In this document: positions 1,590-57,842 of the stretch, in pieces | Layout: each line of letters begins with the position of its first letter | How positions within the stretch are numbered: the first letter of the stretch is position 1 | Source: Isurus oxyrinchus | Taxonomy: Eukaryota | NCBI GenBank assembly: GCA_026770705.1 | Contig: JANJGN010000020.1 | Coordinates: 32,984,001 to 33,048,000 of the forward strand | DNA length: 64,000 nt | Direction: 5' to 3' | The notes under the pieces: model-generated | Told to the model about the DNA's origin: nothing | The model's database searches: none | What the model saw: the letters and a program-made list of their open reading frames with translations, nothing else | Program-made: the position numbers and the translations under genes

Positions 1590-1718
1590 AGACTAGCTTT
1601 ATAGTCCAGATTTATTAATTGAATTTAAATTTCACTAGCTGCCATGACAGGATTTGAACCTGTGATCCCAGAGCATTAGCCTGGGTCTCTGTATTACCAC
1701 TCCACCACCATCTCCCCT
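1590..1718 (-). mobile_element. tRNA-derived SINE fragment (same family as 50066-50380)
   Basis: Shares TTGAATTTAAATT-CAC-A-CTGCCATG-CAGGATT-GAACC…CCCCAGAGCATTA-CCTGGGTCTCTG with 50268-50340; B-box-like GGTTCAAATCC on the minus strand. Confidence 0.6.
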
Positions 1719-8790: not shown

Positions 8791-11700
8791 TGTAGAAATT
8801 ATAGTTTTGATAAATGTAGGACTGTAGCTTTAAGAATAATCCTGTGTTGTAATTTCACATGATCGGTGTAAACCAATGAGTTAGCAGCATAGGGAACCTT
8901 TAGGAGGGAGTTCTTCTTTAGTTATAGAGTTTGATGTAGAGTACACATACAGTTGCTGCTGCTGTCTTGTAAATAAAGTTAAATGTGTCCACCAAGAAGA
9001 ATTGCCTGGAAAATCAACTTTACAACAAACTGGCGATGAGAATAAATCAGATCCACTACTGTTCCTCGCCCAGCAATTGAGTATCTAGCCTTAAAAAGAA
9101 AGGAAGATTTATTCATCTCAGATGCCACAGTTTGGCACAATCAATCCCTTTGAGCCAGCCACAGATGACTGGTCTCAATATATAGAATGTCTTGCATTCT
9201 TCTTTCAAGCAAACAAATTCACGGGGTAGGAAAAGAGGAGAGTGATTCTCCTGAGTATTTGTGGGAGCAGGACCTACAGTTTAATTTGAAGCTTGACCAC
9301 CACCCCCCGCGCCCCCCAACTCTGTGTCCCAGTTTCGAAGACCTTCAGTGAATTAGTAGACCTCGTTAAGGGACATTTTCAACCCAAGCCCTCAGTCACA
9401 ATGCAAAGGTTCAGGTACAATTCACGGAATAGAGCCCCAGGGAGACCATTGCTACCTACATGGCGAAATTAAAACAACTAATGGAACATTAATATTTCAG
9501 TGAAACCCTGAATGATATGCTCAGAGATCGTTTAGTATGTGGCGTGCAGGAAGACACTATTCAGAGATCGCTGGCTGAAGTGAACCTTGATTTTGAGAAA
9601 GCATTAGGAATAGTGCTTGCAATGGAAAGCACTGAGGAATTCACAAGTGATTCAAAGGGTGCAAAGTGGCGCCATCCTCTTAGTTGGGCAGGAACAGTCA
9701 GCCAAAAGCGGTGCAAAAAGCTGGAACTCCACCGCCAAGTGGGAAATAGATCCCGCCAACCGAAAATTGAGAAGAAACAGCTTAACAGCAAAGTTGAAAA
9801 CCCCCTAATTTTCATTGACATGGAAACAATCATACTCCTGACGTTTGGCAACTTAAAAAATTAGGGTGTTATTTTTGTCACAGGCGTGGACACATATTGC
9901 AACATTGCAAAGCGAGATTTAAACAGGCTTCCAGGCAGCAATCGAAGTCCAATGAAGTATATAGTGTGGAAGAGCCAGAAACAACCAATTCTGACATTTA
10001 TTCATTATTTAACATGAAAGTTGGGAAGACAAAGCCAATTATTTTCACAGTACGAGTGAATGGTAAACCATTAAAAATGGAAGTAGGCACTGGTGCTTCT
10101 ACCACTGTAATAGGAGTACACACTTTCAGATATTTAAAGGTGATCAACAATTAAATTTGGAATAAACATCTGCCAAGTTGAAAACATACACAGGCGAAGC
10201 AATCTAGGTAAACGGTATCACCAGAGTAACTGTTCATTATAGACACCAATTGGCACAGCTACCAGTGATGGTGGTAGAAGGTGAAGGACCAAGCCTTCTA
10301 GGTTGTCATTGGTTGAAAGAGATTAAACTAGTCCAATTGCGAGCAGGGGGACTGCCAAAGCTACTAAAAAAAAGTATGACACTGTCTTCAAGGATGAACT
10401 AGGAAACATCCAAGGCCAACAGACCAAGATTTACGTGGATCCAGAAGCAACCCCTCACTTCTTGAAAGCAAGACCGGTGCCATACACTTGAGAGAGAAGG
10501 TTGACGCTAAGCTGAAGCGGCTAGAGAGGCTGGGTACTATAAAAGCAGTTCAGTTCTCAGAGTGGGCAGCACCCATTGTCCCTGTCCTTAAACCAAACCA
10601 GACCATCCGGATCTGTGGGGACTATAAACTAATGGTCAACAAAGCAGCCAAACTGGACATTTAACCTATTCCCAAGATTGAAGACCTCTATGCCAAAATA
10701 GCAGGAGTGACAACGTGTACAAAGTTTGACATGCGTCACGCACATCAGCAACTGGAGCTGGATAATGCCTCCCGAGAATTTGTGACCATAAATATCCACA
10801 AAGGGTTAAATCGACATGCCTGCCCTTTGGTGTTTTGATCAGCCTATGTCATTTTTCAAAAGAAGATGGAGAGCTTGCTACAAGGACCACTGCAAGTTGT
10901 TGCCTACCTGGACGATGTACTAATAACTGGATTCACAGAAAAATGAACACTTGGCTAATCTACAGGGAGTCCTGAAACTATCTTTAGATGCAGGAATGTG
11001 CCTAAAGGAAGAAAAATGCACTTTTCAGGCAAATGAAGTCATTTATTTGGGCCAACAGGTACGTGCCCAAGGGTTACACCCTGTTGAAGAGAAGGTTAAA
11101 GCTATCAGAAAGGTACCTACACCTAAGAATGTCTCTGAACTTAAATCATTTTTAGGGATAGTAAATGATTATGGCTGATTTCTACCAAAGTTATCAAAAA
11201 TTCTAGCCCTGCTTTCTTCACTGCTAAAGAAAAACCTTCCTGCCTTTGTAGTTAGTAGCGATTATTTATGCAAGATTTTGATGGGCTTCAGTTTCGTGTA
11301 AGGTGGTTACCTGGTAAAGTAAGCTCTGTGACCGGAATCCCCCCATTGTCAAACCATGTGGAAATGGAGGGACGGATCACCCTTAAGCATGTGGATCATT
11401 TAAGAAAAAGGGAGATACCCCAATAAAATGATGTCCCGCCTGTAACCATTGCTGAATCTGTGGCTCCTGTTGAAGTTGCTCAACTAAAGACAGACATGCT
11501 CAATGTCTCTGTGGGAATGGAAGGCACTGAACTGCATGTGCCTTAAGAGGTACCTGATGTTAATGTGGTCCCAGAGAATGTGTTTCCTGTGAAAGAGTCA
11601 AGAGTCGTGGAGCTACAACGTTCCACACTGATCAGGAAACCACCTGAAAGACTGAACTTGTAATTTCATGACCTGTGTAAATATTGTAATGCTGTGAGGT

Positions 11701-11976
11701 AAATATCCTTGTAAATACAAAATATACAGGAAAGTTATAGGGGTAGGAATGTAGTAATTATAGTTTTGATAAATGTAGGACTGTAGCTTTAAAAATAATC
11801 CTGTTGTAAGATCACATGGTCTGTGTCAACCAATGAGTTAGCAGCACGTGGAACCTCTACAACTAAAGAACTCCCTCCTAGAGTTTGATGCACACATTTA
11901 GTTGCTGCTGCTGTCTTGAAAATAAAGTTAAATGTGCCCACCAAGAGAAGTTGCCTGGAAAATCATCTCTATAACA
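8791..11976 (+). mobile_element. Gypsy (Mag-clade) LTR retrotransposon, internally deleted (RNase H and most of integrase missing)
   Basis: LTRs 8791-9027 and 11750-11976 (TG…CA); perfect 5-bp TSD GTTTC; PBS TGGCGATGAG (9031, tRNA-Ser type); PPT 11731-11749; gag MLRDRLVCG, zinc knuckle, protease MEVGTGAS, RT WAAPIVPV…CGDYK…YLDDVLI. Confidence 0.95.
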
Positions 11977-13961
11977 GTTTCCCTCATCAGTCCTCTATTT
12001 CACCTCTTCAAAAAACTCCAGAAAGTTAGTTAAACATGATTTTACCTTAAGAAGTCCATGCTGGCACGTCCTAATTAACCCACATTTTTCCATGTGACTA
12101 TTAATTCTATCCAGAATAATTGTTTCTAGAAGCCTCCCCACCACCCAAGTTATACTGACTGGTCTGTAATTGCTGGGCTTATCGTTACAACCATTTTTTG
12201 AACAAATGTTTGCAATTCTCCAGTCCTCTGGCACCTTCCCTTAGTCTAGGGAAGATGGAAAGATTATGGCCAGTGCCCCTGCAATTCAATATCCTTGGAT
12301 GCACCTTATCCTGTCCCAGTGCCTTGTCAACTTCAAGTACTGACAGTTTCTCCAACACCTTTTTATAAATTTTGAGTCCTTCTAGTGACAGAGTTTCCTC
12401 CTTTGTCACCATGGCCAGTGTAGTATCTGCTTCCTTGATAAAGACAGATGAATTCATCGAACACCTCAGCCATGGTCCCTGCCTCCATGTGTAAATCCCC
12501 TTTTTGTCACGAATTATCCCTACTCCTTTTCCCACCCTTTTACTATTTATGTGCCAATAGAAGGCTTTGGGATTCCCCTTTATGTTGGCTGCCAGTCTTT
12601 TCTCATAATCCTTCCCCGCTTCTCTTATTTGCTTTGTCACCTCTCCTCTGAACCTTTTGTATTCAGCTTGGTTCTCAATTGTATTTTCTACCTGACACTT
12701 ATCATAAGCGTATTTTTTCTTCTTTATCTTAATTTCTATCTCTTTTTCCATCCAGGGAGCTCTGGATTTGTTTGCCCGACCTTTCCCTTTTGAAGGGATA
12801 TACCTCAACTGAGCTGGAACCATTTCTTCTTTGAAGGTAGCCCATTTTTCTACTACGGTTTTTCCCGCCAACCTTTGGTTGCCATCTATCCAGCCCAGTT
12901 CCGTTCTTGCCCCATTGAAGTCACTCTCCCCCAGTTAATTATTCTTACTTTGGATTGCCCATTGTCCTTTTCTACCTTCATCCTAAACCTTATGCTACAA
13001 AGATCACTGTCTCCTAAATGTTCCCCCACTAACATTTGATCTACTTGGCCCATCTCATTTCCAAGAAGCAGATCTAGTAGTGCCTCATTTCTTGTTGGAC
13101 TGGATACATACTGCTGTAGAAAATTCTCCTGGACACACTTTAGGATCTCTTTCCCCTCCCTGCTCTTTACACTAACACTATCCCAGTCTATATTTGGGTA
13201 ATTAAAGTCCCCAATTATAACGACTCTATAATGTCCACATCACTCTGTAATTTCCCTGTAGATGTGTTCCTCCACACCTTTCCCATTAGTTGGTGGCCTA
13301 TAGACTACAACGAGCAATGTAATTGTACCCTTTTTGTTCCTTAGCTCTAGCCAAATCGATTATGTCCTTGAACCCTCTGGGACATCCTCTTTCTCCAGCA
13401 CTACAATGCTCTCCTTGACAACACCGCCAGCCCTCCTCCTTCTTGTCCTATCTTTCCTGAACACCTTGTACCCAGGAATATTTAACACCCAGCCCTGTCC
13501 TTCCTTGAGCCAGGTCTCTGTTATCATCACAACTTCATAATTCCGCATGGCAATCTGCATCTGTAACTCAATCTTATTTACTATACTCTATTCCTTCACA
13601 TACAATGCAATATAACCCTGATTTAGTCTTCATTATTTTCTCCCTTACTCCAACTCCGTCTATTCACTTACTATTCTCTATTCTAGTGCTACTATCCTTC
13701 CCAGTATTTTGTGCACCTTGGTATTACTCTCTAGTATTCCCTCCTGGTTCCCACACCCATGCCAAGTTAGTTTAAAGCCCCCTATGCCCCCCACCCCCCC
13801 CCACCCCGACCCCACCACCACTCACAACCGCATCAGCAAAATGTCCTGCAAGGAACTCAGTCCCAACTCTGTTCAGGTGCACCCCTGTCCAGCTTGGACA
13901 GCTGCCATCTCCCCAACAGCCAGTCACAATGTCCCAGGAATCTAAAGCCTTCCCTCCTGCA

Positions 13962-24263: not shown

Positions 24264-24319
24264 TGAGTGAGTCCAAGAAAGAGTTGAAATATAAGCTGGT
24301 TTAAGGTGTGTGGCGGGGG

Positions 24320-24350
<31 letters not shown>

Positions 24351-24661
24351 GGAGGGGGTTGGTGTGGTTGTAGGGACAAACAAGCAGTGATAGAAGCAAA
24401 TCATCAAAAGATGTCACAAACAACAGAACAAAAGAACACATAGATGTTAAAGTTGGTGATATTATCTAAACGAATGTGCTAATTAAGAATGGGTGGTAGG
24501 GCACTCAAGGTATAGCTCTAGTGGGGGTGGGGGGAGCATAAAATATTTAAAAATATTTAAAAATAATGGAAATAGTGGGAAAAGAAAAATCTATATAAAT
24601 TATTGGAAAAAAAACAAAAGGAAGGGGGAAACAGAAAGGGGATGGGGATGGAAGAGGGAGC

Positions 24662-25190
24662 TCAAGACCTAAAGTTGTTGAATTCAATATTCAGTCCAGA
24701 AGGCTGTAAAGTGCCTAGTCGGAAGATGAGGTGTTGTTCCTCCAGTTTGCGTTGGGCTTCACTGGAACAATGCAGCAAGCCAAGGACAGACATGTGGGCA
24801 AGAGAGCAGGGTGGAGTGTTAAAATGGCAAGCGACAGGGAGGTTTGGGTCATTCTTGCGGACAGACCGCAGGTGTTCTGCAAAGCGGTCGCCCAGTTTAC
24901 GTTTGGTCTCTCCAATGTAGAGGAGACCACATTGGGAGCAACGAATGCAGCAGACTAAGTTGGGGGAAATACAAGTGAAATGCTGCTTCACTTGAAAGGA
25001 GTGTTTGGGCCCTTGGACGGTGAGGAGAGAGGAAGTGAAGGGGCAGGTGTTGCATCTTTTGCATGGGCATGGGGTGGTGCCATAGGAGGGGGTTGAGGAG
25101 TAGGGGGTGATGGAGGAGTGGACCAGGGTGTCCCGGAGGGAACGATCCCTACGGAATGCCGACGGGGGGGGGGGGGGTGAAGGAAAGATG
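24662..25190 (-). pseudogene. Inverted duplicate of the PLE linker + GIY-YIG C-terminus
   Basis: ORF 24662..24991 is nearly identical to the last ~109 aa of the main ORF. Confidence 0.9.
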
Positions 25191-25239
25191 CAACGGTTTT
25201 TATCTCTGTGTTTAATTGACTGCCACTGCTCTTCAAGAA

Positions 25240-27993: not shown

Positions 27994-28405
27994 GCTGCCT
28001 CCTCCATCCCCATCCCCTTTCTGTTTCCCCCTTCCTTTTGTTTTTTTTTCCAATAATTTATATAGATTTTTCTTTTCCCACCTATTTCCATTATTTTTAG
28101 ATATTTTTAAATATTTTATGCTCCCCCCAACCCCACTAGAGCTATACCTTGAGTGCCCTACCATCCAGTCTTAATTAGCACATTGGTTTAGATAATATCA
28201 CCAACTTTAACACCTATGTGTTCTTTTGTTCTGTTGTTTGTGACATCTTTTGATGATCTGCTTCTATCACTGCTTGTTTGTCCCTACAACCACACCAACC
28301 CCTTCCACTTCTCTCTCTCTCTCCCCCCCCACCCCCCCCCCCTCCCCCACCCCTTACACACCTTAAACCAGCTTATATTTCAACTCTTTCTTGGACTCGA
28401 ACTCA

Positions 28406-30462: not shown

Positions 30463-33400
30463 GGCCTGAACTTTCTGAGGAGCGGCAATCACCTTCAGGT
30501 TGCTACTCCACTCCTACTTTTCTGCACCATGCCAGAGCACCGCAATTCTGGCCGGGACATTCAATCCCGACTTCTCCAGAAATGTGGAGTGCACCTGAAA
30601 GGGAACTGCTTCTTCGTAGTGCTAGATCATCGAGGGAAGAGAGCCATGCCCCTTCTTATGGCTCCATTTGCTGCATTCTGGTAAGTAAAGAGTTTGAATA
30701 TCCCAAAGCTTCTTTTGAGAAGCTACAGACGGAAAGTATAGTAATTACGGTTTTAGTCAGTATGCAATGTACCTTTAAGAATAGTACTTGTTAGATAAGG
30801 TCACATGATCTGTAGTAATCACTATGAGAGCAGCTCGAGCTACCTCAGGAGTCAGTGCAGAGATAGAGTTGGAGTTGAAAGCACACGTGTATTTGCTGTT
30901 GAGTATATTGTAAATAAACTTAATGTTTCCACCCAAAAAGTGTCTGCAGATCAACTATCATTAATAGCACAACTGAGCCACCCAACAACAAAGTGGCGAT
31001 GAGGATAAAACAGGATTGAACAGAAGAAATCAAGCTAGAAAGAAATCAGCACTGCACTTTGCCCAGTGATTGTAAGTAGCAAGCTCATTAGAATTGAAGA
31101 AGTTATCCCCTCTCAAAACGCCACAAATTAGGAGAATTGATCCATTTGAACCTGTCACAGACATTTGGTCTCAATACATAGAATGCCTCACCTTTTTTCA
31201 AGCAAACAAGGTTACGGGAGAAGAGAAGAGGTGAACAATCCTCTTGAGTACTTGTGGGAGTAAAACCTACAGCTTGATTCAAAGTTTGATGGCACCCAAT
31301 GCCCCAGATTTAAAGAATTTCGATGAGTTGGTGGACCTCCTGAAGGGTCATTTCCAAACCAAGTCCTCAGTCACGATGCAGAGGTTCAGGTTTAATTCAT
31401 GAAATAGAGCCCCAAGTGAGACAATTGCATGTTATGTGGCAAATTTGAAGCAGCTAACAAAACATTGAGAGTTCAGTACAACTCTGAATGACATGCTCAG
31501 AGGTCATTTAGTATGTGGTATGAAAGAGGACACTATTCACAAAAGATTATTGTCCAAAGTGAATCTGGATTTCAAGAAGGCACTAGAGATAGTGCTGGCC
31601 ACTGAAAACACTGTAAGAAATTCAAAAAGTGATACCAGGTGCACAAAATGGTCCCGTCCTCCACATCAGGTGGGAAACCTCAATCAAAAGTGGTGCAAAA
31701 AAAAAAAGAGACTCCGGCAAGAAGCGGGAAACAGACCCCACTAGCCGAAGCCAAATAAAGTAAAATAACTTAGCAGCAAAATCGAAGAATAATTTTAACA
31801 GAGGTGGAAACAGTCAGTTTTTTAGTGATTGGCAGTTTTTTAAAAATCGAATGCTACTATTGTCATAGAAACGGGCATATGATGAGGCAATGCAAGGAAA
31901 GATTCAAGCAGGCTTGTAAACAAAAGAAGAAGCCCAATGAAATCTACAATGTAGAACAGCCTGAAACAACAAATTGTGATAGTTATTCCTTGTTTAATCT
32001 GAAAGTTGGAAAGACAGGACCAATATTTCTCACAGTGAAAATGAACGGCAAAACTGTTAGAATAGAAATGGACACGGGAGCTTCCACTGCAGTAATTCGG
32101 AAACAGTCCTTTGGATACTTGAATAATGGTGAACATCAATTAAGTTTAGAAGAAACAGATGCCAAGCTAAAAACATATATGGGTGAAGACATTCAAGTAA
32201 AAGGCATAAATAGAGTAACCAATCAGCAAAGCTACCGTAGATGGTGGTAGCAGGTGAAGGGCCAAGCCTCCTGGGGTGGAATTGGTTAAAGGAAATTAAG
32301 TTAAAATGGGCTGAAATTTTTCAGTTGAGAGCAAGTGGGCTACCAGAGCTACTTAGAAAGTAGGCCACTGTCTTTAAGGATGAACTGGGGAAAATCCAGG
32401 ACCTGCAGGACAAGATTCATGCGGATTCGAAAGCAGCCCCTCACTTCATGAAGGCAAGATCGGTGCCATATGCCCTGCAAGAAAATGTTGACATTGAGCT
32501 GAACAGACTAGAGAAATTGGGCTTAATACAACCTGTTCAATTCTCAGAATGGGCAGAACCCATAGTCCCTGTCCTTAAATCCGATCAAAGCATCCAAATT
32601 TGTGGAGATTACAAACTGACAGTTAATAAAGTAGCTAAGCTAGACAGTCATCCCATTCCTAAAATTGAAGATCTGGCAGGAGGGACAACAAACACATGAC
32701 ATGAGTCATGCTTATCAATAACTAGAGTTGGATAATGCCTCCCAGTAATTTGTCACAATGAATACCCACAATAGGTTGTACCAATGTACAAAATTGCCTT
32801 TCAGTGTCTCCACTACTTATGCCATCTTTCAGAGAACAATGGAAAGCATACTGCAGGGACTGCCCCAGATTGTAGTCCATTTAGGCGATGTATTGGTGAC
32901 AGGATTCACTGAAAAAGAGCATTTGACAAACTTAGAAGAAGTCTTAAATGTTTCTTGCAAGCTGGAGTGTGTTTACAAAAAGAAAATTGCACATTCCAGG
33001 AGAGGGAAGTAATCTATCTGGGTCACTGGGTAGATTCACAGGGTCTCCTGATGGAGGAGAAAGTGAGAGCCATAAGACCTGTGCCAAAGAACACCTCAGA
33101 GCTCAAATCATTCCTAGAAATGATCAACTATTATGGGCAGCTCTTACCCAATTTGTCTACAGTGCTGGACCCCTGCATTCTCTACTCAAAAAGAACCAAC
33201 GTTGGTCTCGGGAGGTGCCCCAGAAAGAAACTTTCATAAAGGTGCACTCGTCCAATCTAGTAGTGCATTATGACCAGACGAAAGAATTGGTGCTGACATG
33301 TGACACATCTCCCTACAGAGTGGGAGCAGTGTTCTCTCATCGGATAGACCACAGCACCGAACAGCCAATAGGTTACATATCAAGAATGCTCACCACAGCG

Positions 33401-35760
33401 GAAAAGGAATACTCACTGATAAAAAAAGACCAGTCCATCATCTTTGGTGTCAAGAAATTTCACCAGTATGTATACAGCCAACATTGTACAATCGTTTCAG
33501 ACCACAAACCATTGCTAGGATTGTTTAGTGAAGACAAGGCTATACCACCCACAATCTCAGCAAGAATACAACGATGGGCTTTAACTCTGGCTTCATACAA
33601 ATACACTTTCATACATAGGCCTAGCAAGCAAGTCGCAAACGCTGATGCCCTTAGTTGTTTGCCTTTACAAGAAAATGATGAGTACGTCCCAGTTCCACAG
33701 GAACTTGTTTTACTGTTAAATTTCTTAGATTCCTTGCCAGAGTGTGCTCAACCAATCAGAGACTGGACAAGTTGGGACCCAGTCCTATCTCAAGAGAACA
33801 AGTGCTACATGGTTGGTCACAGGAGCCTGTATCTGACAAAATGAAACTGTACTTCAACAGAAGACATGAAAGTTCAGTATAATACTGTGTGCAATGTCAG
33901 CAACTGCAAAATTTGCCAGTGACAGTTCCGTTACACCCATGGGAGTGGCCAGGTAAACCAAGGGTTTACACATTGTTCCAAGGGATGGTCCAACTTAGGC
34001 AATGTTTCTGCTCATTGTCGATGCCCATTCAAAATGGTTGGACATATATGAGGTGAAGTCACCAACATCGGCCGCAACAAGTAAGAAACTATGTTAGAGT
34101 TTTGCCATTCACTGACTACCAGAAGTAGTAATTTCCAATAACGGCACAGCATTTACAAGTACGGAGTGTCAACAGTTTATCAGCCCCAACAGTTTCACTC
34201 ATGTGAAAATTGCACCATACCACCCTTAACTAAAATGGACTGGCCAAAAAGACAGTTCAAACGTTCAAGGCAGGCAAAAGAAAGCTAATTGGCGATTTCA
34301 TGGCAACCAAGCTAGCACACTTTGTTTTTCATTACAGCACAGCCCCTCATACAACAACAGGTGTCACACCTGCGGAGTTATTATTGAAACGCCATCTCAG
34401 GACGGGATTGAGCTTAATAATGCCAAGTTTTGAGGGGAAAGTGAAAAGAAGTCAGGAAAGCCAGAAAACTAGATACGACTGGCATAGTCGCAAGAGGAAA
34501 TTTACTGCGGGAGAGCCGGTATACGTAAAAAACTTCGGGGAAGGGCCAAAGTGGTTACCAGGTACAATAAGTGAGGTGATTGGACATATATCTCATCACA
34601 TGGAGGTGGAAGGCTGGATCATCCGGATCATTTAAGGAAGAAAGAGACAAATCACCAAGATTTGGTTCCGCCAATGATAGTGACTGGATCTGTGTTTCCT
34701 GTTGAGGATGTTCCTCCCAGGACTGACATGTCAGATGTTTCTGTAAGAGTTGAGGATACAGAACTGAAAGTGCCCACTGAAGCACCTGATGTTCAGGCAA
34801 CCCCGGAGAAGGAGGTTCCTGATGAAGAATCTGAAGTTGTGGAGCTGCAACATTCCACACGTCCCAGGAAACCACGTGAAAGACTGAACTTATAAATTCC
34901 TTACCCAGTGTAAATATTATGTTGTCTTGAAAAATGTGTATAGCCGAGTTAAAGGGGGAAGAATGTAGTAATTATGGTTTTATTTAGTGTGTAATGTACC
35001 TTTAAGAATAATACTTGTTAGGCAAAGGTCACTTGATCTTTAGAAACCAATAGGAGAATAGCTTGGGCTACCTCAAGAGTCAGTGCAGAGATAGATTTGG
35101 AGTTGAAAGCACACGTGTAGTTGCTGCTGAGTATATTGTAAATTAATTTAATGTTTCCACCCAAGAAATGTCTGCAGATCAACTCTATCATTAATAGCAC
35201 AACTCAGCTGCCCTACAACAGAAGTGGATAAGAGGGTAGGCTGGATAAAGGGGTAATGTGAATGAGGGGGGAATGTGAAGGGATAGGGTGGCAGGTGGGT
35301 GAATGGGTAAGTGGATCGAGTTGGGAGGGGTTGTCAGGTCAAAGGCTAGTCAGCTCGAGTTGAAGTCTGGTTGGATCAGGTCAGATGGAGTCCAGGGGTC
35401 AAAGAGGGAGTCAGGTGGTGGGGTCTAGTCAGGTCAGGTTGAGGGGAGGGAATTTTGGGTGACAGTGTGAGTGATTGGGGGTGTTAGTTGTATAATTACC
35501 CAAGTGTTAGACTCAGATTTTTCTACCTAACATTTCCTGGGTGACTATTCAGGGAAATTAACTTGGAACAATCTGAAGTCTCCAATTCTAGCCCAGAGTT
35601 GAAGGCTTTTTCAGAGAGTCCTGGGAAGCAGGGGTATTGCGCGCTGGAAGTTCAAGCTTCACAGGCAATTCCTATGGAGTCAGTGCTTTGGGACTTCCAA
35701 GGAGTGCAATAGCGCATCTTTGGGATTATGTCCGGTCACCAACCATCCGGAATAGTGGTC
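30463..35760 (+). mobile_element. Non-autonomous TIR-type repeat split by the Gypsy at 30737-35220; same family as 42024-42736
   Basis: 30463-30736 plus 35221-35760 align to the reverse complement of 42024-42736 (TTGC.ACTCCACTCCTA…CTTCTT.GTAGTGC..GATCATC…TTGAGAAGCTAC, then a G-rich tract). Confidence 0.65.
30737..35220 (+). mobile_element. Gypsy (Mag-clade) LTR retrotransposon, near-complete but degenerate gag-PR-RT-RH-IN
   Basis: LTRs 30737-30990 and 34964-35220; PBS TGGCGATGAGGAT (30994); PPT AAAGGGGGAAGAA; CYYCHRNGHMMRQC knuckle, MDTGAS protease, RT SEWAEPIVPV…CGDYK, RNase H LTCDTS…SDHKPL…NADALS, integrase VDAHSKW…PHTTTGVTPAELL. TSD unclear. Confidence 0.95.
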
Positions 35761-43007: not shown

Positions 43008-45795
43008 CTTCTCCTTGTAATCACTTTCTCCACAGACAGTTTGCAGCTTCTGTGTAATGAATGCAGCTCTTGTTTAAGAGGGGCAGATAGCCTTTAAGGC
43101 ATGCAGTTAGCTGAAACACATGCTAGCCCTCCGCGCTGCTGGGCCCCCTTTTCAGCCAGCAGCAAGGGTTGCACTCAGCATGCTGAAATAATTCAAATCG
43201 GGAGGCAGCGTGAAGGCTGCATGCCACTTGTCGCAACAGAAGCAGATGCAGGGTAGCCGCGTATCTTCCTAAAACAAGCGTGCTCAAATCTATCCCCCAT
43301 TACTGAAAATTTGAAGCTACTAAAGATATTATAGAACATACTGAATTATTATTAGTAAAAAGTTTCTTCGTGCACTACTATGTTAGTCATCAAGTGGTGC
43401 CATGTTGGCTTCAGTAATGCAGCACCTGGGATTTCATTGGTGAAAATAGATTCGTCAGTGAAGAGCATAAATCTGAGAAATTACACTTAAAAAGTTCCAA
43501 CAGGTATATTAAAAATATTGGTTAATAAAGAAGATTCCCTAATGTTACAAATCTAATTCAAAAAAATAAACCAGAGTTGAGATTATTCTTTGGTGATTTG
43601 CTTTTATTAAAAAAAATGATTGTTGGAGTCAACTCCTATAATGAAAAAGTTTATCCTCATGAAACAAAAAGCTACTCTTAGTTGGAGTTAGTTCTATTCT
43701 GCTGTTGCTAATTGATCTGAAATAAAGGGGAAAGTTAGATTGCTTCTATACAGCAATCTGCAAAACATAGTACAGCATGTTAGTTACTGCAGATACCACC
43801 CAGAAAAACCATATGAGCATAACCATTTGTGGAACTGAAATAAAATGACACATTTATAATGAAGCTATTAGTACATGCTGAAGCTTTTGTTTTGATCACG
43901 ACTCATTATTAGCGATGAGCTGTGAAACATGACCCGAATTCCAATTCATCTGAGTTTGGCTGGTTTATTCCAAGTGAGAAGTTGAATATTTTCCTAATTT
44001 ATGGGAATGTGGCTATTCTAATGAAGACAATAGTGACCTGTACGCAGGTGGGTCACCTTGCCATTTTGATACATTCTGCACATATGAAATACAATGCTGA
44101 TAACACACAAAATTAAATTTACATGCCTCCATATTTATCTCATGCAGCAGGCAACTGGAAGGAAACTATACATATATTCTATTAATGAAAGATTGTCCTG
44201 AACTTTTTATTTTTCATCAATACCATCTGATTTCAAAGTGTTGATTCAAAAATGTTCTGCCTGCCTGTGACTAAGACGTCCAGAATGAACAGAGCACAAT
44301 GTGCCATCTTGATTAGCCTTTCTGGAGGACAGTTGGCATTTTCCAAAGTGTGGTGGCTCAGAGGTAGTAATTGAAACCATTACTAGATGGCCAAGTCCAA
44401 CTAATTGTAGAATAACTGCCAGAGTCTGGTGCTGATGTTCAGTATTCATATGGTTGTGTCCGTGTTTGCAGGGCTGACTGAGTTTGTTCCTTGGTTGCCT
44501 CAGAATATCCCATGATTATTTTCTGTGATGTGTGCAATCTGGAGGTTGTGTGCATGAGCAGTGTTGTGTATTCCATTCTGCCTTGTGTTGTGTGATGTCA
44601 TATGTGCCTGCATGCCATTGTAATATAAAGGTGTTCAGCAGAGCAAGGGTTAATGCGGGACTGGAGAACAGCACCATCCACGATATGATGTATAGAGTTA
44701 CATGGTAATAGACTGAGAAAATAGTATAGAGAGAACACTCTAAAAGCAGCCTACCTGCACAGTGAGCAGCACCATGCATGTCAATACCTGGGATCTGTAA
44801 ACAGTTAAAGACTACCAAAAAAGGGTTCATGTTTAAACACACAAGACCCTCTCATCAATGAGTCACAACAACCAAACTAATATTGCAACATGGTTGACAG
44901 CAGTGGACTACAATTTGATATGAAAGGTGGCAGCATTTTAAACAATGAATCCAGACCAGTATCCCAAGGTATGAAGCACTAAAGGCAGCTGAAGCCAGAC
45001 CAGGGAGTGGTATACCTAAGAAGAAAATTTGAAGAAACAGTTGAAGAAGCTTCATTACAAACTTGGAAGTGAGGAACCCACCAGAGTGAGTAGAAGTTGT
45101 TTGCAAGACCCCGGAGTGATGCAGGGTAAGAAAGAAAAAAAACCTGGTCAGATCACGAAGATGGGTGAGCAAAATTACAAAAATTGCAAAACCGTGAGTG
45201 ATGCAGTGTGGAGAATACTGAACAGTTCACAAGATGGTGAGTAGAAATTACAGAAAGAAGCTGTATTTATGTTATAGAATAGGTGGCAGTCCCAGGGCTC
45301 AGCATATCCATAGAGAAGCTGGAACACAACTGCAAGTAAAAAAAAAAGTTTATAAAAAACTGTAGAAAAATAAAAGATAAAGGAAAATCTGCAGAGCAAA
45401 AATTGCTGCTGTTCTGAAGGCTTTAAAAAAAAGGCAAGCAGAACACACAAAGAAGAGCTGCAGCTTTAATTTTTTTAAAAAGGGCCCCGATTGGACCATG
45501 AGCCTGCCAAAACTCCCAAAGCATGGGATGTCCAACATCAAAGGGACCCGCAGAGCTAAAAGAAACAACAGAAATAATCACCCAGAAAAGAGATGTTACT
45601 GTTTTGAAAGTTTTAAATAGTTTAGAAAAAGGCTAACGATCACTGGAGAGCCCACCAACATCAGAAAAGTGTGGGAAACCTACAGCAAAGAAAGCCGACA
45701 GCTGCAGAGACAGCCTGAGTGAAGAAAATGGATTCTGCCCTGACCATCTTAAAGCAGTAATAAAATTTAAAGCTGTAACTACAAGCAAACAAAAA

Positions 45796-46075
45796 ATGGC
45801 CATGGACAGCAACTTAGAAGAGCCACTGGCATTTCTGCTATGGAAAGAGCTAAACTGGATTCAAGAGTGGGAGTTTTGGAGAAGACAATTTTTACTGTAC
45901 AGGAGAAGTACAAGCTTAAATAAGGAGTTAGAAGAAGTGCAAGTTGATAATTTTGTATTCATCTTTGGCTTATTTGCTGATGAATTATTTCACAGCTGAC
46001 AAATAGATCAACACTCAACAACATTTGGTGAGTTCTTAAAAGGCTTTGACAGATATTTAAACCCCAAGGTGTGGA
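45796..46075 (+). pseudogene. Mag-type Gypsy gag N-terminal domain relic
   Basis: MDSNLEEP..F…WEFWRRQFLLYRRSTSLNKELEEVQV…IFG..ADELF…TFGEFLKGFDRYLNPK fits the Mag gag pattern W..W..RF..Y…S.L…QV…MG..A…FD.YF.PK. Confidence 0.65.
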
Positions 46076-46239
46076 GACCGCAGACCCCAGAAGATGGTCT
46101 AGCACACTCCCAATAAACCAGTGAGGCCAACAAGACACTCCAGAGAAAGGGCGACAAAAGACCCCGGAGTGACAGAGCCAAATGACCCCAGAGCAAGGGA
46201 GGCAGATGGCAATGCAGAGTGAGCAGATGGCTGTGAATG

Positions 46240-47270
46240 CAGAAAAGCTACCTGAGGGAATTCAAAAGAAGCAAAATGTGCAAAGCACAAATGAAGCTGT
46301 GCTGGAGGGAAATGCTCACATCAGAGCTGAACTGGAAGATTTGAAGCACAAGATCCAAGCTGAGTATATACCTCTGAAATGCATGATAAACTGAAGTCTT
46401 TAATGAGCCAAGCTGTTCAAGATCTGAGCAAACAAATTTCAGAGATGACACAAAGGCATCAGGAGGAAATAATGACTCTCAATTCCACAGTTGGCAACTC
46501 AAGGCAGGAGTTGGGAAAACTAAAGCAAATGTATAGCCAGACAAAACAGCAGGCAGAAAAGGCATGCAAAGAGGTTGCGACCCTGAAAGTCTTCTTGAAG
46601 AGTCAATATGTAGCCATGAGGACCGACAGAAATGTTGAATATAACCTAAGAAAAAGCTGTGTTGGAAATATCTGTAGCAATAAAACAATGGACTGAAGCC
46701 CTAAGTGAGTTGGCAAGAGGTTAACAAGAAAATGAACAGTTGAAAGAACAGTTGTGTCCTTCAAGGTCAAATACAAAAGGAATGCATAACCATTCAGCAA
46801 CATAAGACTGTCTTAAATGGCAGAATGGAAGCACAGCAGAAGAAATTAGAGGACCATCTGCTGAATTACAGGAAAGCGCAAAATGAAGCAAGTGAGCTTC
46901 GCATAGAAAAGGAAAACCTGTTGTAAGACCTTCATATAGTACAAGAATCATTTAGGTCAAAGTTTATTTCTCTGGCACATTACGAAGAGAAGGAAAATGA
47001 ATTTAAGGCCACACTGAAAAACTGAAGAACCAGTTGGCAGAGAAGGCTCAACAATGTTCTATATTTCAGGAGGAAGCCAAAAGCTACAGGAAACAGACTG
47101 AAGAGCTGAAGAAGAAGTTGAATGGAAAAGGAGAACTTTCCAAGCTGCAAGCAGATAATGAAACCATAAGTAGCACAATTGCAGAACTGAATCAAGTTAA
47201 CACTTCGGAGACAGACCAGGCCAACAGTACAACCAAAATGAGGGATAAGGACAAAATTCTACTGTGACCA
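46240..47270 (+). pseudogene. Frameshifted coiled-coil coding module resembling the UACA (UACA/RAI14/ANKRD24 family) central coiled coil
   Basis: Repeating (Y/F)(I/V)(P/S/A)L..H/YE motifs: IQAEYIPLK.HDKLK, LKSQYVAM, QGQIQKECITIQQHK…LLNYRKAQNE, RSKFISLAHYEEKENEFKATLK.LKNQLAEKAQQCSIFQEEAKSYRKQTEELKK. The similarity to UACA is judged from memory, not from a search. Confidence 0.65.
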
Positions 47271-48839
47271 GAGAACCAAAAGACAGAAATAAGATCAGAA
47301 AATATAAATCCGACACTGAAACACAAGGAACTAGAAGAAGAAAAAGCATTGGATGTCTCAGAGGTATTGAGAACCACTGAGCTGAATGAAAAGATTTATA
47401 AGCTTGTGAAACGCTTTGAAAATAGCACACAAATGTTTCGTGACATTGTGAAACAAGTGAAAATGAAGGTTCCATTTGCAAAACGCAAACGTCCTCAGCA
47501 AGAACATGGCGGACACCACAGAAAAGGAAAATTCAACTCCACTCCAAGAATGAATGGAGTGTACATTCCCCTTGGAAGGAATGGGAAAAACCCACATTGT
47601 CCGAAAAAAGGAGACAAGTTATTTATGAAGAGAATCCTAACTCGAAGGAGTGCAAAAAGCAAATCAAATGAAGATAGCCAAGTACCAGAAACACAGAGTA
47701 CATCTAACATTCTTCCAAATGTGACAGACCAAGGTGTGAAAGAACTGTGGAGCCTCAAGACCATCTGAATTTATACAGTCAGAGACTTGAAATGGGGGAG
47801 CAGGAATAGCAAGTAAAGATTGTATTGTAGTACTCTGTTGGAAGAGGGGAAAGTTTTCTTTGAAGAAAAAAGGGGGATGTTGTATGATGTTGTATGCGCC
47901 TGCATGTCATTGTAATGTAAAGGTGCTCAGCAGAGCAAGGGTTAATGTGGGACTGCAGAATTGCACTGCCTACGGTATGATATATAGAGTCACATGCTGA
48001 GAGAACAATCTAGAGAGAATACTCTAGAAGCAGCCTGTCTGCATGATGAGCAGCATCATGTATGACAATATCTGGGATCTGTAAATAGTTAAAGACTACC
48101 AATAAAGAGTTCATGTTTAAACACACAAGACCCTGTCATCAATGAGTCACAACTACCGAACCCACATTACAACACCTTGTTTTTCTAAAGTCACTGCGGA
48201 ATCCCTGCACTCCTCTGAGCATACTTATGCTGAAGCTTTTGCACATGCACAATGACACAAGTGTTGCATTTCCTGTATTTTGATCAGCTGGGTAAACAAG
48301 CATTAATAGATGCATGTAAGCGGTAGCCAAAACACACACTGTCACAATTGTGAAATCAACCAGGGATTCAAATTCAGAACTTAGAAAGAAATTAATATGC
48401 CAAGCTTTTTATTTGCTAGGGGAAATCTTATTCTCTGAAGCACAAAACAGATGCAAAAACAGGAGACACCCTGAAGCAGACTCTTCTCTATTTGCACTGT
48501 CCTAGGAATTCTGTGGTGTCTCTGAACAAATATTCAGATTGTGAAATAACAGCTCCACCCACCTCATTTTGTTCTCTGTACTCTTGATGGACACACACCA
48601 AGGACAGTCAGGCCTCATACCCTATCCCAGCCCCATTCAACATCAGAAGAATTAAGAAAAAGTAAGCAGCAAAAAGATAGAACCAGCAAAAATATTTTTT
48701 GGAAGGTTTCTTGCAACATCTTTGAGTTGAATGCTTATATGGATGCTGATTCGGGGCAGGTGCCACAGTGTTGGGATGTTGTGTCAGAGAAATGCCTGGC
48801 CTATTAAAATGAATTCATCAATAAAGGTGTGTTCAGTTG

Positions 48840-50065: not shown

Positions 50066-50380
50066 GATGTGGGCATTGTTGGCATTTATTGCCCATCCCT
50101 AATTGCCCTTGTTCAGAGAGCAACCACATTGTTGTGGGTCTGGAGTCACATGTAGGCCAGACCAGGTAAGGACATCAGATTCCCTTCCTTAGTGAACCAG
50201 ATGGATTTTTACAATTGACAATGGTTTCATGGTCATCATTAGACTTTTAGTTCCAGATTTTCTAAATTGAATTTAAATTCCACCATCTGCCATGGCAGGA
50301 TTCAAACCCAGGCCCCCAGAGCATTACCCTGGGTCTCTGGGTTACTAGTCCAGTGACAATACCACTATGCCATCACCCTC
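50066..50380 (-). mobile_element. tRNA-derived SINE sharing its 3' tail with CR1-group family B
   Basis: Minus strand: A-box TGGCATAGTGG, B-box GGTTTGAATCC, ending GGGCAATTAGGGATGGGCAATAAATGC. Confidence 0.75.
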
Positions 50381-54919: not shown

Positions 54920-57842
54920 TGTTGGAGAGCTAATCTTCACACAACTTTTCTTAGTGGAAGCAACTACACACGTCCATCAAACCCCATAACTAAAGAAGTA
55001 TTTCCCTCTTTAGAGGTTCCCCACACTGCTAACACATTGGTTTACACAGATCATGTGATCTTATAGCACAAGATTATTCTTAAAGCTATAGACCAACATT
55101 TCCCAAAACTATAATTACTACATTCCTCCCCCTTTAACTTTTCTGTACATTTTGTATTTACAAGGATATTTATCTCATGACATTAGAATATTTAGAAAAC
55201 ATCATGAAATGACAAGTTCAGTCTTTCAGGTGGTTTCCTGATCCGTGCGAAATGCTGCAGTTCCACAACTTCAGATTCTTTTGAGGAAACATATTCTCTG
55301 GAACCACATTAACATCAGGTACCTCATTAAGCACTTGCAGTTGATAGTCTGCCGCTCTGATAGAGACATCAGGCATGCCTGTCCTTGGCTGAGCATCTTC
55401 AACAGGAACCAGTGGTTCTGTATTGGTTACAGGTTGAACAATATCTTGTTGTGATTTCTCTCTTTTTCTTAAGTAATCCACTTGCTTATGGGTGATCTGG
55501 CCCTCCGCTTCCACATGGTAGAACAATGGTCCGATCACTGAACTTACTTTACCAGGTAACCACTCCAGCCCTCCACTGAAATTCTTTACATATACTGCAT
55601 AAATTTCTTTACATAAATTGTCTCTCACAACCATGTAAATCATGCATTGGTTTTTGATTCCCTTGACTTTTCTCCACCTTCTCCTCCAAATTGGGAAGTA
55701 TTAGGCTCAGTCTTGTCTGAAGATGGTGTCTCATCAGTAATTCAGCATCTTCTTTATACATGTTATCTTTTTACCACAAAATTTAGTCTCAGTTTCTTTT
55801 AGACCTCACTATTAGCCAGACTTCTCTCAGATGCAATCTCAACTTATTTTGGTTCAGTAGCTGAATCACTCAAGACTTCATTATCTGCTCACCTCTTGGA
55901 AAGTTCTACGACTTTTGCTTTCAAAGCCTCTTTAGCTTCATTTAGCTGATTCTTCAGTTCTGTCTCTTACTTGTATCTATTGGCTTCCTCCTGGAAACCT
56001 GAATATTACTACGTCTTCTCTGCCAACTGGTTCTTCAGTTTGTTCAGATAGGTGTCAGATTCTTCCTGTTTTTCTTTGTACTCTTCCAGAGGCACAAACT
56101 TTGACCTGAGGGAACCTTGCAGTGGGTGGGTCCCCTTGAGTTTCTTCTGCTGTTCTTCCAATGGCGTTGTTTAAGATAGTCTACATTTCTTCAGTTTGTT
56201 GAATCCTTACACACTCCTCTTTCATCCTATTACAGTTCTTGGACTCTCCAGGCTCTTTTTGAAATAGCTTGCCTTGCTGCTTTTCCAAGACAGGAACTCC
56301 TCCAGCTTCCTTTTGAAATCTCGCTGGCCAATCAAGGTTGATTTCCCTTAACCAATTCTTCTGTAGAAGGCTTGTACCTTTGCGTTTCCGTACCATCACT
56401 GGTAGATATGCCAATTGGTTTCTATAATGAACAGTTGCTTTGGTGATACCTGTTACTTAGATTTCTTTGCCTGTATGCGTTTTCAACTTGGCAGATGTTT
56501 GTTCAAAATTTAATTGTTGATCACCTTTATTTAAATATCTGAAAGTGTGTTCTCCTATTACAGTGATGGAAGCTCCCGTGTCTACTTCCATTTTTACTGG
56601 TTTACCATTCACTTGCATGGTAACAAATATTGGCTCTGTCTTCCCAACGTTCATGCTGAATAATGAATTAATGTCTGAATTGGATTTTCAGGCTCATCTA
56701 CACTATAGTCTTCATTAGACTCCATTTGTTGTTTGGAGGCCTGTTTAAAATCTTGCTCAGCACTGTCTCATTATGTGTCCACTTCTGTGACAAAAATAGC
56801 ATTCCACTTTTTTATATTGCCAATCGCTAGAAGAATGATTGTTTCCACTGTGCCGAAAGTTATTTTTCAATTTAGTTGCTAAGCTGCTTCCTCTCAGTTA
56901 GCGGGTGCTGTTTCCTGCTTCGCTCCAGAGCCCTGACTTTTCACACCACTTTCGGCTGACTGTTCCCACCTGATTTGGGGTATGGCACTGCTTTGCGCCC
57001 CTTGAATTGCTTGTGAATGCCTTACAGTGCTTTGCATCACCAGTGCTATTTTTAATGCTTTCTTAAATTCAAGATTCACTTCAGCCAGTAATCTTCACTG
57101 AATAGAATCCTCCTGCACACCACATACTAAACAATCTCTGAGCATGTCATTCAGGGTTTCACCAAGATCACAATATTCCGTTATTTGCTTTAATTTCACC
57201 ATGTAGGTAGCAATTGCCTCACCCAGAGCTCTACTTCATGAATTGAACCTGAACCTTTGACCGATGGCTCAGGTTGAAAATATCCCTTAACGAGGTCTAC
57301 TAATTCACTGAAAGTCACTAAATCTGGGGCGCTGGGGGATGTCAAACTTCGAATCAAACGGTAGGTTTTGCTCCCACAAGTATTTAGGAGAATCGCTGTC
57401 TTCTCTTGCCCGATGATGTTGTTTACTTGAAAGAAGAATTCAAGTCATTCTATATACTGAGATCAATCATCTGTGGCTGGCTCAGAGGGATCATTCTGCC
57501 AAACTGTGGCATTTCAGATGAGTATGTCTTCTGTTATTTTTAATGAACTTAAATACTCACAATCACTGGGCAAGGCACAGCACTAAATCTGATTTATCCT
57601 CATCACCAGTTTGTTGCAGAGTTGATCTTCAGGCAACTTTTCTTAGTGGAAACATTTGGCTTTATTTACAAGACAGCAGTAGCAACTAAACACATCCATC
57701 AAATTCTATAACTAAAGAAGTACTCCCCTCTGTAGAGGCTCCCTATGCTGCTAACATTGGTTTACACAGATCATGTGATCTTAGAGCACAGGATTATTCT
57801 TAAAGCTGCAGTCCAACATTTTCCAAAACAATAATTACTACA
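54920..57842 (-). mobile_element. Gypsy (Mag-clade) LTR element with RT, RNase H and IN core replaced by a UACA-like coiled-coil module
   Basis: LTRs 57612-57842 and 54920-55122 (same family as the 8791 element); TSD CTATC/CTACC; PBS TGGTGATGAGGAT; PPT; gag, CCHC knuckle, protease MEVDTGAS, then foreign segment 55747-56237, then IN C-terminus AELLMRHHLQTRLSLI. Confidence 0.92.

What the first reader, a model, noticed from the sequence alone, without database searches (positions are those of the whole stretch)
55747..56237. The same UACA-like module in a second, different LTR family, fused in frame after the protease
Seen: on the minus strand the Gypsy protease region reads straight on (SLLQKNWLREINLDW…LFQKEPGESK-NCNRMKEECVRIQQTEEM) into DNA homologous to ~46775-47265. 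An example is AGGTCAAAGTTT.T..CTCTGG…AAACTGAAGAACCAGTTGGCAGAGAAG…CAGGAGGAAGCCAA. The element then resumes at the integrase C-terminus (AELLMRHHL). Its LTRs and Ser-type PBS differ from the 44586 element, and the two coil copies are clearly diverged. Inference: a captured host-derived module moves between LTR lineages, probably by RT template switching, and is kept in sense and in frame with gag, which hints at selection.
Basis: partly seen in the sequence, partly recalled or inferred. Interest (0 to 1): 0.8.

Follow-up and report, generated by a model that had tools for sequence, protein, structure and literature searches.

The report
Host coiled-coil cassette swapped between retrotransposons
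A piece of a host membrane-shaping gene was captured by a jumping gene and passed between unrelated jumping-gene families, probably in a shark, but whether it ever did a job for them is not shown.

Summary
The shared module is real. A Gypsy-type element (57842-54920, minus) has about 2 kb of RT-RNaseH-integrase replaced by about 490 bp. That DNA is 71-72% identical to the coil in the unrelated 44586 element (E 7e-25) and maps in order onto a UACA protein.

Three results favour transfer between elements over a local patch or two captures. The modules are closer to each other (52-71% aa) than to UACA (37-43%) and share an internal skip. Basking shark gene models carry both module types. About 120 bp just before the coil is not from this element's own family (synonymous divergence from its sister 0.83, against 0.19 in the protease), so the coil probably arrived with flanks of a third Gypsy lineage.

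'Fused in frame and selected' is weak. The protease frame runs only 14 codons into the coil before a stop and a frameshift. The coil has 7 stops in 142 codons against 8 in 499 elsewhere in the element. dN/dS is 0.58 (0.33-1.07). No protease-coil fusion protein was found; both shark relatives are stand-alone models.

Verdict: a new variant of LTR-mediated host-gene capture, with selection unproven.

The parts
57612..57842 (-). 5' LTR of E55
   Evidence: 177/201 identical to the 3' LTR; flanked by a 5-bp target duplication with 4 of 5 bases matching, 57847-57843 and 54919-54915
57595..57608 (-). Primer binding site shared with E8 and E30; tRNA-Ser type (assignment recalled)
   Evidence: sequence; differs from the E44 site
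56690..57512 (-). gag with CCHC zinc knuckle (56801-56760), broken by stops and several frameshifts
   Evidence: frames; homologous to E8 and E30, dN/dS 0.44 and 0.25; the zf-CCHC Pfam hit (below cut-off) was on the E30 counterpart
56366..56689 (-). Aspartic protease, E8-family backbone
   Evidence: PF13975 E 1e-7; 234/276 identical to E8
56240..56365 (-). Protease end and RT linker from a more distant Gypsy lineage, open in the protease frame
   Evidence: identity to E8 falls from 234/276 to 45/81 (56335-56240), p 1.7e-7; pS 0.83 against 0.19, Fisher p 1e-4; no such drop between E8 and E30
55795..56237 (-). UACA-derived coil module: about P0009 904-1030 joined to about 1172-1223, with a 75-nt in-frame deletion relative to E44; first clearly homologous codon at 56225; 7 stops and 2 frame changes
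55748..55794 (-). End of the module and about 30 nt of A-rich flank that seems shared with E44 and P0007, not detectably UACA
   Evidence: The P0007 tail fits E44 47263 best of 14017 positions and E55 55778 within the top 4; direct DNA match of E55 to E44 here is not significant, 820 of 2226 windows score as high
55215..55747 (-). Integrase C-terminal remnant, out of frame with the coil tail in this copy
   Evidence: aligns to E30 from 34371; 55563 onward about 80% identical to E8; 55746-55618 pS 0.89 to E30 against 0.55 downstream, p 0.11
55123..55136 (-). Polypurine tract
   Evidence: sequence
54920..55122 (-). 3' LTR of E55 (lacks 30 nt present in the 5' LTR)
46248..47267 (+). Longer copy of the module in E44: P0009 691-1030 then about 1175-1214; its frame ends at the same stop position as P0008
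44586..48174 (+). E44, unrelated LTR element carrying the module; LTRs 254/297 identical, perfect 5-bp target duplication
8791..11977 (+). E8, closest sister of E55, without the module (comparison copy)
   Evidence: no module hit
30735..35220 (+). E30, decayed near-full-length relative with RNaseH and integrase, without the module (comparison copy)
   Evidence: Pfam RT_RNaseH E 1e-25, rve E 5e-6, below its cut-off

Best explanation
Step 1 (donor shown, route inferred): a stretch of host UACA mRNA coding for coiled coil was captured once by an LTR retrotransposon and lost an internal part of about 140 codons.

Step 2 (shown): it split into two subfamilies, E44/P0008-like and E55/P0007-like.

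Step 3 (mosaic shown, mechanism inferred): reverse transcriptase switched templates between co-packaged element RNAs. The module first replaced the RT-RNaseH-integrase core of a Gypsy lineage X. The block of protease end, linker, coil and perhaps an integrase piece then crossed into the E8-family backbone through conserved protease and integrase sequence.

Step 4 (inferred): the result is a non-autonomous element with LTRs, PBS and PPT, moved by a helper. The coil frame was probably kept open for part of its history, most likely as a short ORF as in both basking shark models, but in the E55 line it looks like decaying cargo. A selected protease-coil fusion is possible but not shown.
For: - Modules 52-71% identical to each other and 37-43% to P0009; E55 groups with P0007 at 97/96.
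- All four tails fit P0009 1170-1223; 0-4 of 500 shuffles reach the score.
- E55 keeps 9 nt and an eight-codon stretch that E44 lacks and P0008 has, so the E44 copy is not the donor.
- Module divergence (JC 0.35) exceeds the 0.145 expected from LTR ages.
- Foreign linker: pS 0.83 and pN 0.39 to E8, while E8 and E30 differ there by pN 0.11.
- About 30 nt of flank past the coil is shared.
- About 1970 nt replaced by 490 nt, no insertion pattern. This is the structure reported for LTR-mediated capture (PMC5131818, passages).
- Excess stops in the E55 coil.
Against: - The DNA around P0007 and P0008 was not seen, so it is not known that they lie in LTR elements.
- No second copy with E55's junctions was seen.
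- P0009's species is unknown. A shark UACA could be closer to the modules and could itself lack the skipped stretch.
- Local alignments can also run the modules straight through P0009 to 1070-1084 without the skip.
- Lineage X has no module-free member in the window, and the 3' foreign piece is only suggestive (p 0.11).
- The direct DNA match for the 30-nt flank is not significant.
Confidence: 0.7

Rival explanations
1. Selected fusion: the family made a Gag-PR-coil polyprotein in which the coil served as a self-association or tethering domain, and lineages that picked it up spread better.
For: - Open frame from the protease into the coil over 91 codons, and the foreign linker is open.
- Two open models 58% identical to each other; 4.7 stops expected along 0.21 substitutions per site, P(0) 0.009.
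- dN/dS point value 0.58; 5 of 8 indels are multiples of three.
- P0007 folds as three long helices, mean pLDDT 85.
- The coil of the relative Ankrd24 mediates self-association (PMC13712265, passages).
Against: - 7 stops in 142 coil codons against 8 in 499 in E55's Gypsy genes: p 0.052 corrected for opportunity, 0.029 raw. 1.4 were expected from LTR age.
- The dN/dS interval 0.33-1.07 includes 1, a shifted frame gave 0.33, and third-position excess is not significant (p 0.16). Gag and PR controls give 0.25-0.29.
- In-frame indel controls are 3 of 12, 5 of 12 and 10 of 23.
- No fused protein among the 4 hits in 1.84 billion representatives or among 641 longer candidates (weak by the tool's own note).
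- An alternative alignment near 56244 puts the Gypsy frame out of register, ending in two stops just before the coil.
Confidence: 0.2
2. Stand-alone accessory ORF: the coil is a separate short protein kept by selection on element or host, not a fusion.
For: - Both database relatives are stand-alone models of 168 and 177 aa.
- P0008 starts at the codon matching E55 56225 and ends at E44's stop position.
- E44's coil has 1 stop in 285 codons against 3.3 expected.
Against: - Gene predictors select open frames, can splice round breaks and can truncate.
- Only 2 of 3454 candidates passed.
- No expression data; E55 has excess stops.
Confidence: 0.3
3. One-off DNA repair patch copied from the neighbouring E44 copy into a break in E55.
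For: The two copies are only 9 kb apart, and the E55 junctions have been seen once.
Against: - E55 has codons that E44 lacks.
- E55 groups with P0007 rather than E44.
- Divergence is more than twice the LTR-based age.
- The foreign linker has no match in E44.
Confidence: 0.03
4. Two independent captures of the same UACA region by two families, perhaps from a short splice form.
For: No shark UACA was available, and the skip could be a host splice form or a lineage-specific deletion.
Against: - The modules are much closer to each other than to P0009.
- They share a 3' end and a flank not detectably UACA.
Confidence: 0.08

Closest known systems
LTR-mediated retrocopies in animals (Tan et al. 2016, PMC5131818; passages read)
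   Same: A host mRNA piece replaces internal ORFs between two LTRs; template switching; further cycles as a non-autonomous element; often sense and in frame
   Different: In the passages read each retrocopy sits in one element; here one module is in two unrelated LTR families and comes with flanks of a third lineage
Maize Bs1 (as described in PMC5131818, and named in PMC7264820, part 1 of 3)
   Same: Captured host fragments in an LTR element, copies share switch points, partly in frame
   Different: Plant, one family, three donor genes; here one donor gene in several families and function not shown
Crocodilian ERV capture of KIT-ligand and nectin3 (PMC4299795; passages)
   Same: Vertebrate retroelement lineages carrying a host ORF over long times and across species
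   Different: Retroviridae, whole soluble form or full-length ORF, significant purifying selection, one ERV group each; here Gypsy-type, an internal coil fragment, selection not significant
ORF3 pool shared among bdelloid rotifer retroelements (PMC5408684; abstract, section 3.4 and passages)
   Same: Extra ORFs, including coiled-coil types, exchanged between unrelated retroelements; template switching proposed
   Different: Separate third ORFs downstream of pol with no close host donor; here a traceable vertebrate donor and replacement of pol
Acutely transforming retroviruses with gag-onc fusions (recalled; search listed 0 papers; defective capture is mentioned in PMC11905727, passages)
   Same: gag-host-delta-pol anatomy, helper dependent
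   Different: Infectious retroviruses with signalling genes and shown activity; here a structural coil without the ankyrin module

Membership tests
Gypsy-type LTR retrotransposon, non-autonomous derivative (E55) | Two LTRs, target-site duplication, PBS, PPT | tested here: met
   duplication matches 4 of 5 bases
Gypsy-type LTR retrotransposon, non-autonomous derivative (E55) | Order gag-PR-RT-RNaseH-IN in the family | tested here: met
   relative E30 has PR, RNaseH, then rve; E55 is collinear with it outside the insert
Gypsy-type LTR retrotransposon, non-autonomous derivative (E55) | Placement in the Gypsy clade by an RT tree | not tested
   E55 has no RT; no reference RT set on hand
LTR-mediated retrocopy | Host coding sequence replaces internal ORFs rather than inserting | tested here: met
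   about 1970 nt replaced by about 490 nt
LTR-mediated retrocopy | Donor is a conserved host gene | tested here: met
   P0009 named UACA; collinear blocks; shuffle controls
LTR-mediated retrocopy | Microsimilarity at the switch points | tested here: inconclusive
   junction segments fit both partners weakly; donor DNA not available
LTR-mediated retrocopy | Intron loss showing an mRNA template | not testable with these tools
   no host UACA genomic DNA; the region may lie in one large exon (recalled)
LTR-mediated retrocopy | Dispersed copies sharing switch points | not testable with these tools
   no shark genome DNA in any collection; only two protein models
Selected accessory ORF or gag fusion (Bs1, CrocERV29/31 type) | Significant purifying selection on the captured frame | tested here: inconclusive
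   dN/dS 0.58, interval 0.33-1.07; excess stops in E55 but open relatives
Selected accessory ORF or gag fusion (Bs1, CrocERV29/31 type) | An intact fused gag-PR-cargo frame in some copy | tested here: not met
   broken here; none; library representatives can hide fusions
N-Ank protein UACA | N-terminal amphipathic helix plus ankyrin repeats | tested here: not met
   the modules map only to the coil, P0009 691-1223; no Ank hit in any module piece

The most novel reading that the evidence does not exclude
Sharks have a host-derived UACA coiled-coil cassette that acts as a tradable accessory gene of Gypsy retrotransposons. It was captured once, kept open by selection, passed through at least three LTR lineages, and in one lineage was made as a Gag-PR-coil fusion that adds a self-association or host-tethering domain, letting pol-less elements compete for helper particles.
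Probability: 0.2. Interest if true: 0.8.

Novelty: new variant of a known kind. Interest (0 to 1): 0.55.

Why it matters
Host-gene capture by LTR elements is known, but the cases I read about each sit in one element family or group. A traceable host fragment with subfamilies, shared junctions and foreign flanks would let one order the exchanges between LTR lineages in a vertebrate germ line. It would also allow a direct test of whether captured cargo spreads by selection or by hitch-hiking. In practice, shark gene models like LOC144682709 and LOC144678955 may be retroelement cargo rather than host genes.

Tried and rejected
- Word-index searches for longer relatives found nothing: P0001, 0 of 641 candidates; P0005, 0 of 25.
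- Pfam names no family above cut-off for any module piece. The Atlas gave only generic look-alikes for P0005 at low recognition. No PDB sequence relative of P0007.
- P0010 is a repeat protein hit by chance and was left out of all comparisons.
- I tested whether P0007's tail shows the same coil-integrase junction as E55. Rejected: it fits E44 DNA past the module better.
- A gag N-terminus in E44 (45802-46074) looks plausible from recall but was not confirmed: no Pfam hit, hhalign probability 0.5%, shuffles not beaten.
- E44's 166-codon tail matches neither E30 integrase nor P0009.
- A third UACA piece (P0009 459-477) at the 5' junction: 1 of 500 shuffles for 15 residues, but these overlap codons already explained by P0008; left open.
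- In-frame indel excess was rejected as evidence because controls are similar.
- Cluster members of the four hits could not be looked up. Viral and metagenome contigs stayed unchecked. GTDB, phage and plasmid collections were not searched, as they hold no shark DNA.
- The single-sequence fold of P0007 (pTM 0.35) was not used for a fold search. No complex was predicted.

Full report
Setting. The window is repeat-rich vertebrate DNA, probably a shark; this is inferred from the nearest named proteins, which are basking shark models. It holds four decayed LTR elements: E55 (57842-54920, minus), its sister E8 (8791-11977), a more distant relative E30 (30735-35220) and the unrelated E44 (44586-48174). 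LTR pairs are 85-88% identical, so all four are of similar age. E55, E8 and E30 share a PBS; E44's differs. The tRNA assignments (Ser, probably Leu) are recalled. E44's LTRs give no blastn hit to E55's, and its interior has no significant tblastx match to E8 or E30.

The observation. E55 follows E30 through gag, zinc knuckle and protease (PF13975) to about 56244, and again from 55747. About 1970 nt of RT-RNaseH-integrase is replaced by about 490 nt. That DNA matches E44 at 71-72% (E 7e-25; alignment score 221 against at most 64 in 60 shuffles). No third copy is in the window. The protease frame is open from 56456 to 56184 and includes 14 coil codons; a stop and a frame change near 56160 follow. 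The coil body has six more stops and a frame change near 55797, and the integrase remnant is in another frame. So this copy is in register at the 5' join but is not an intact fusion. An alternative DNA alignment with a one-base gap near 56244 would put the Gypsy frame out of register and end it in two stops just before the coil. One copy cannot decide between the two.

What the module is. phmmer with the E55 coil frame against 1.84 billion representatives gave 4 hits: P0007 (168 aa, 66%), P0008 (177 aa, 52%), P0009 (1404 aa) and a chance repeat protein. P0009 has ankyrin repeats and its Atlas neighbours at 0.99 are UACA clusters. E44 maps in order onto P0009 691-1030 and E55 onto about 904-1035. 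No plain or seven-residue-block shuffle of five pieces reached the real score (0 of 300 each). The tails of E55, E44, P0007 and P0008 all fit P0009 1170-1223 best (0-4 of 500 shuffles), which implies a shared skip of about 140 residues. Against this, local alignments can also run straight on to 1070-1084, and P0009's species is unknown, so a shark UACA might lack the stretch. P0007 and P0008 are stand-alone NCBI models, LOC144682709 and LOC144678955 of Cetorhinus maximus, the only 2 of 3454 near-length candidates. P0007 folds as three long helices (pLDDT 85, pTM 0.35).

One capture, two subfamilies. The modules are 52-71% identical to each other and 37-43% to P0009. E55 groups with P0007 (97/96), and E44 is 71% identical to P0008 (five rows, the UACA branch is long). 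E55 keeps 9 nt and an eight-codon stretch that E44 lacks, while E44 keeps 75 nt that E55 lacks, so neither copy derives from the other. Module divergence (JC 0.35) is well above the 0.145 expected from LTR ages. P0007's C-terminal tail fits E44 DNA just past the module's stop best of 14017 positions, and E55's within the top four. The module thus seems to travel with about 30 nt of flank, although the direct DNA match there is not significant.

Identity of E55 to its sister E8 drops from 234/276 in the protease to 45/81 in the linker (p 1.7e-7), starting near 56365, about 130 nt before the coil. E8 and E30 show no drop there (61/77, p 0.30). In that stretch synonymous divergence from E8 is 0.83 against 0.19 (8 of 11 against 8 of 63 same-residue codons, p 1e-4), and pN is 0.39, while E8 and E30 differ by pN 0.11. 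Neutral drift would not raise synonymous change fourfold in 120 nt, so the simplest reading is that it comes from a third Gypsy lineage (inference). The integrase piece just after the coil points the same way but not significantly (pS 0.89 against 0.55, p 0.11). The module therefore probably moved as a cassette with Gypsy flanks, by homologous template switching.

Selection. Against: dN/dS between the two copies is 0.58 (0.33-1.07), third-position excess is not significant (p 0.16), and a shifted frame gave 0.33. Gag and protease of E55 against E30 give 0.25 and 0.29; the protease against the close sister E8 gave 0.69, not significant. E55's coil has 7 stops in 142 codons against 8 in 499 in its Gypsy genes (p 0.052 corrected for opportunity; 0.029 raw); 1.4 were expected from LTR age. 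In-frame indels (5 of 8) do not differ clearly from controls. No fused protein appeared; one search covered only 45-310 residues, and cluster representatives can hide fusions. For: P0007 and P0008 are both open at 58% identity, where 4.7 stops would be expected along the neutral path between the subfamilies (P about 0.009), and E44's coil has only 1 stop in 285 codons. Gene models are chosen for being open and may be spliced, and I could not see their DNA. The balance suggests some past maintenance of the coil frame, decay in the E55 line, and no evidence that a protease fusion was the selected form.

Mechanism, by status. Shown: donor identity, replacement of pol, two subfamilies, discordant linker. 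Inferred: mRNA capture, template switching between co-packaged RNAs, helper-dependent spread. Speculative: the coil as a self-association domain, by analogy with Ankrd24, a member of the same N-Ank subfamily (PMC13712265, passages).

Known systems. Capture with replacement of internal ORFs, switch-point microsimilarity and secondary spread are described for animals, with Bs1 as the plant case (PMC5131818, passages; PMC7264820, first third). Crocodilian ERVs kept KIT-ligand and nectin3 under purifying selection (PMC4299795, passages). Rotifer retroelements exchange extra ORFs (PMC5408684, abstract, section 3.4 and passages). No paper on a UACA-derived module in retroelements appeared in the listings (listings only; for, 15 of 105 shown). 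No supplements were read, and Repbase and Dfam could not be checked; repeat libraries or supplementary tables may hold these families without comment.

Verdict. A real, host-derived cassette shared by unrelated LTR families, with good evidence for element-to-element transfer and a probable third lineage. The in-frame fusion is partial in this copy and selection is unproven. New variant of a known kind; interest 0.55.

Noticed in passing
window 47268-47768 (+): A 166-codon open frame follows E44's coil in the same frame after a single stop that P0008 shares by position. No Pfam, UACA or E30 integrase match; origin unexplained (second ORF remnant or read-through).
   Followed up: partly
window 45802-46074 (+): Looks like a Gypsy gag N-terminus of another subgroup (recalled motif); not confirmed by Pfam or hhalign.
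   Followed up: partly
window 56285-56187 (-): The 5' junction peptide also aligns to P0009 445-487 (0 of 500 shuffles), so a third small UACA piece cannot be excluded.
   Followed up: partly
window 56225 (-): The first clearly homologous coil codon is a Met matching P0008's predicted start, and two stops lie just before it in another frame; a stop-restart arrangement is conceivable.
   Followed up: no
window 11240-11302 (+): E8 has its own deletion of RNaseH and integrase core, with about 60 nt of unassigned sequence at the join.
   Followed up: no
window 46379-46648 (+): E44's coil lacks 34 residues of P0009 (about 761-794) in frame, a further internal skip.
   Followed up: no
window 24292-28365: A 925-codon open frame (25216-27993) with RT-like and GIY-YIG-like motifs (recalled) and inverted repeats of 90-98%; probably a young Penelope-like element.
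   Followed up: no
window 1640-1714 (-): ARAGORN calls tRNA-Ile inside a dispersed repeat also at 50259-50352; probably a tRNA-derived SINE.
   Followed up: no
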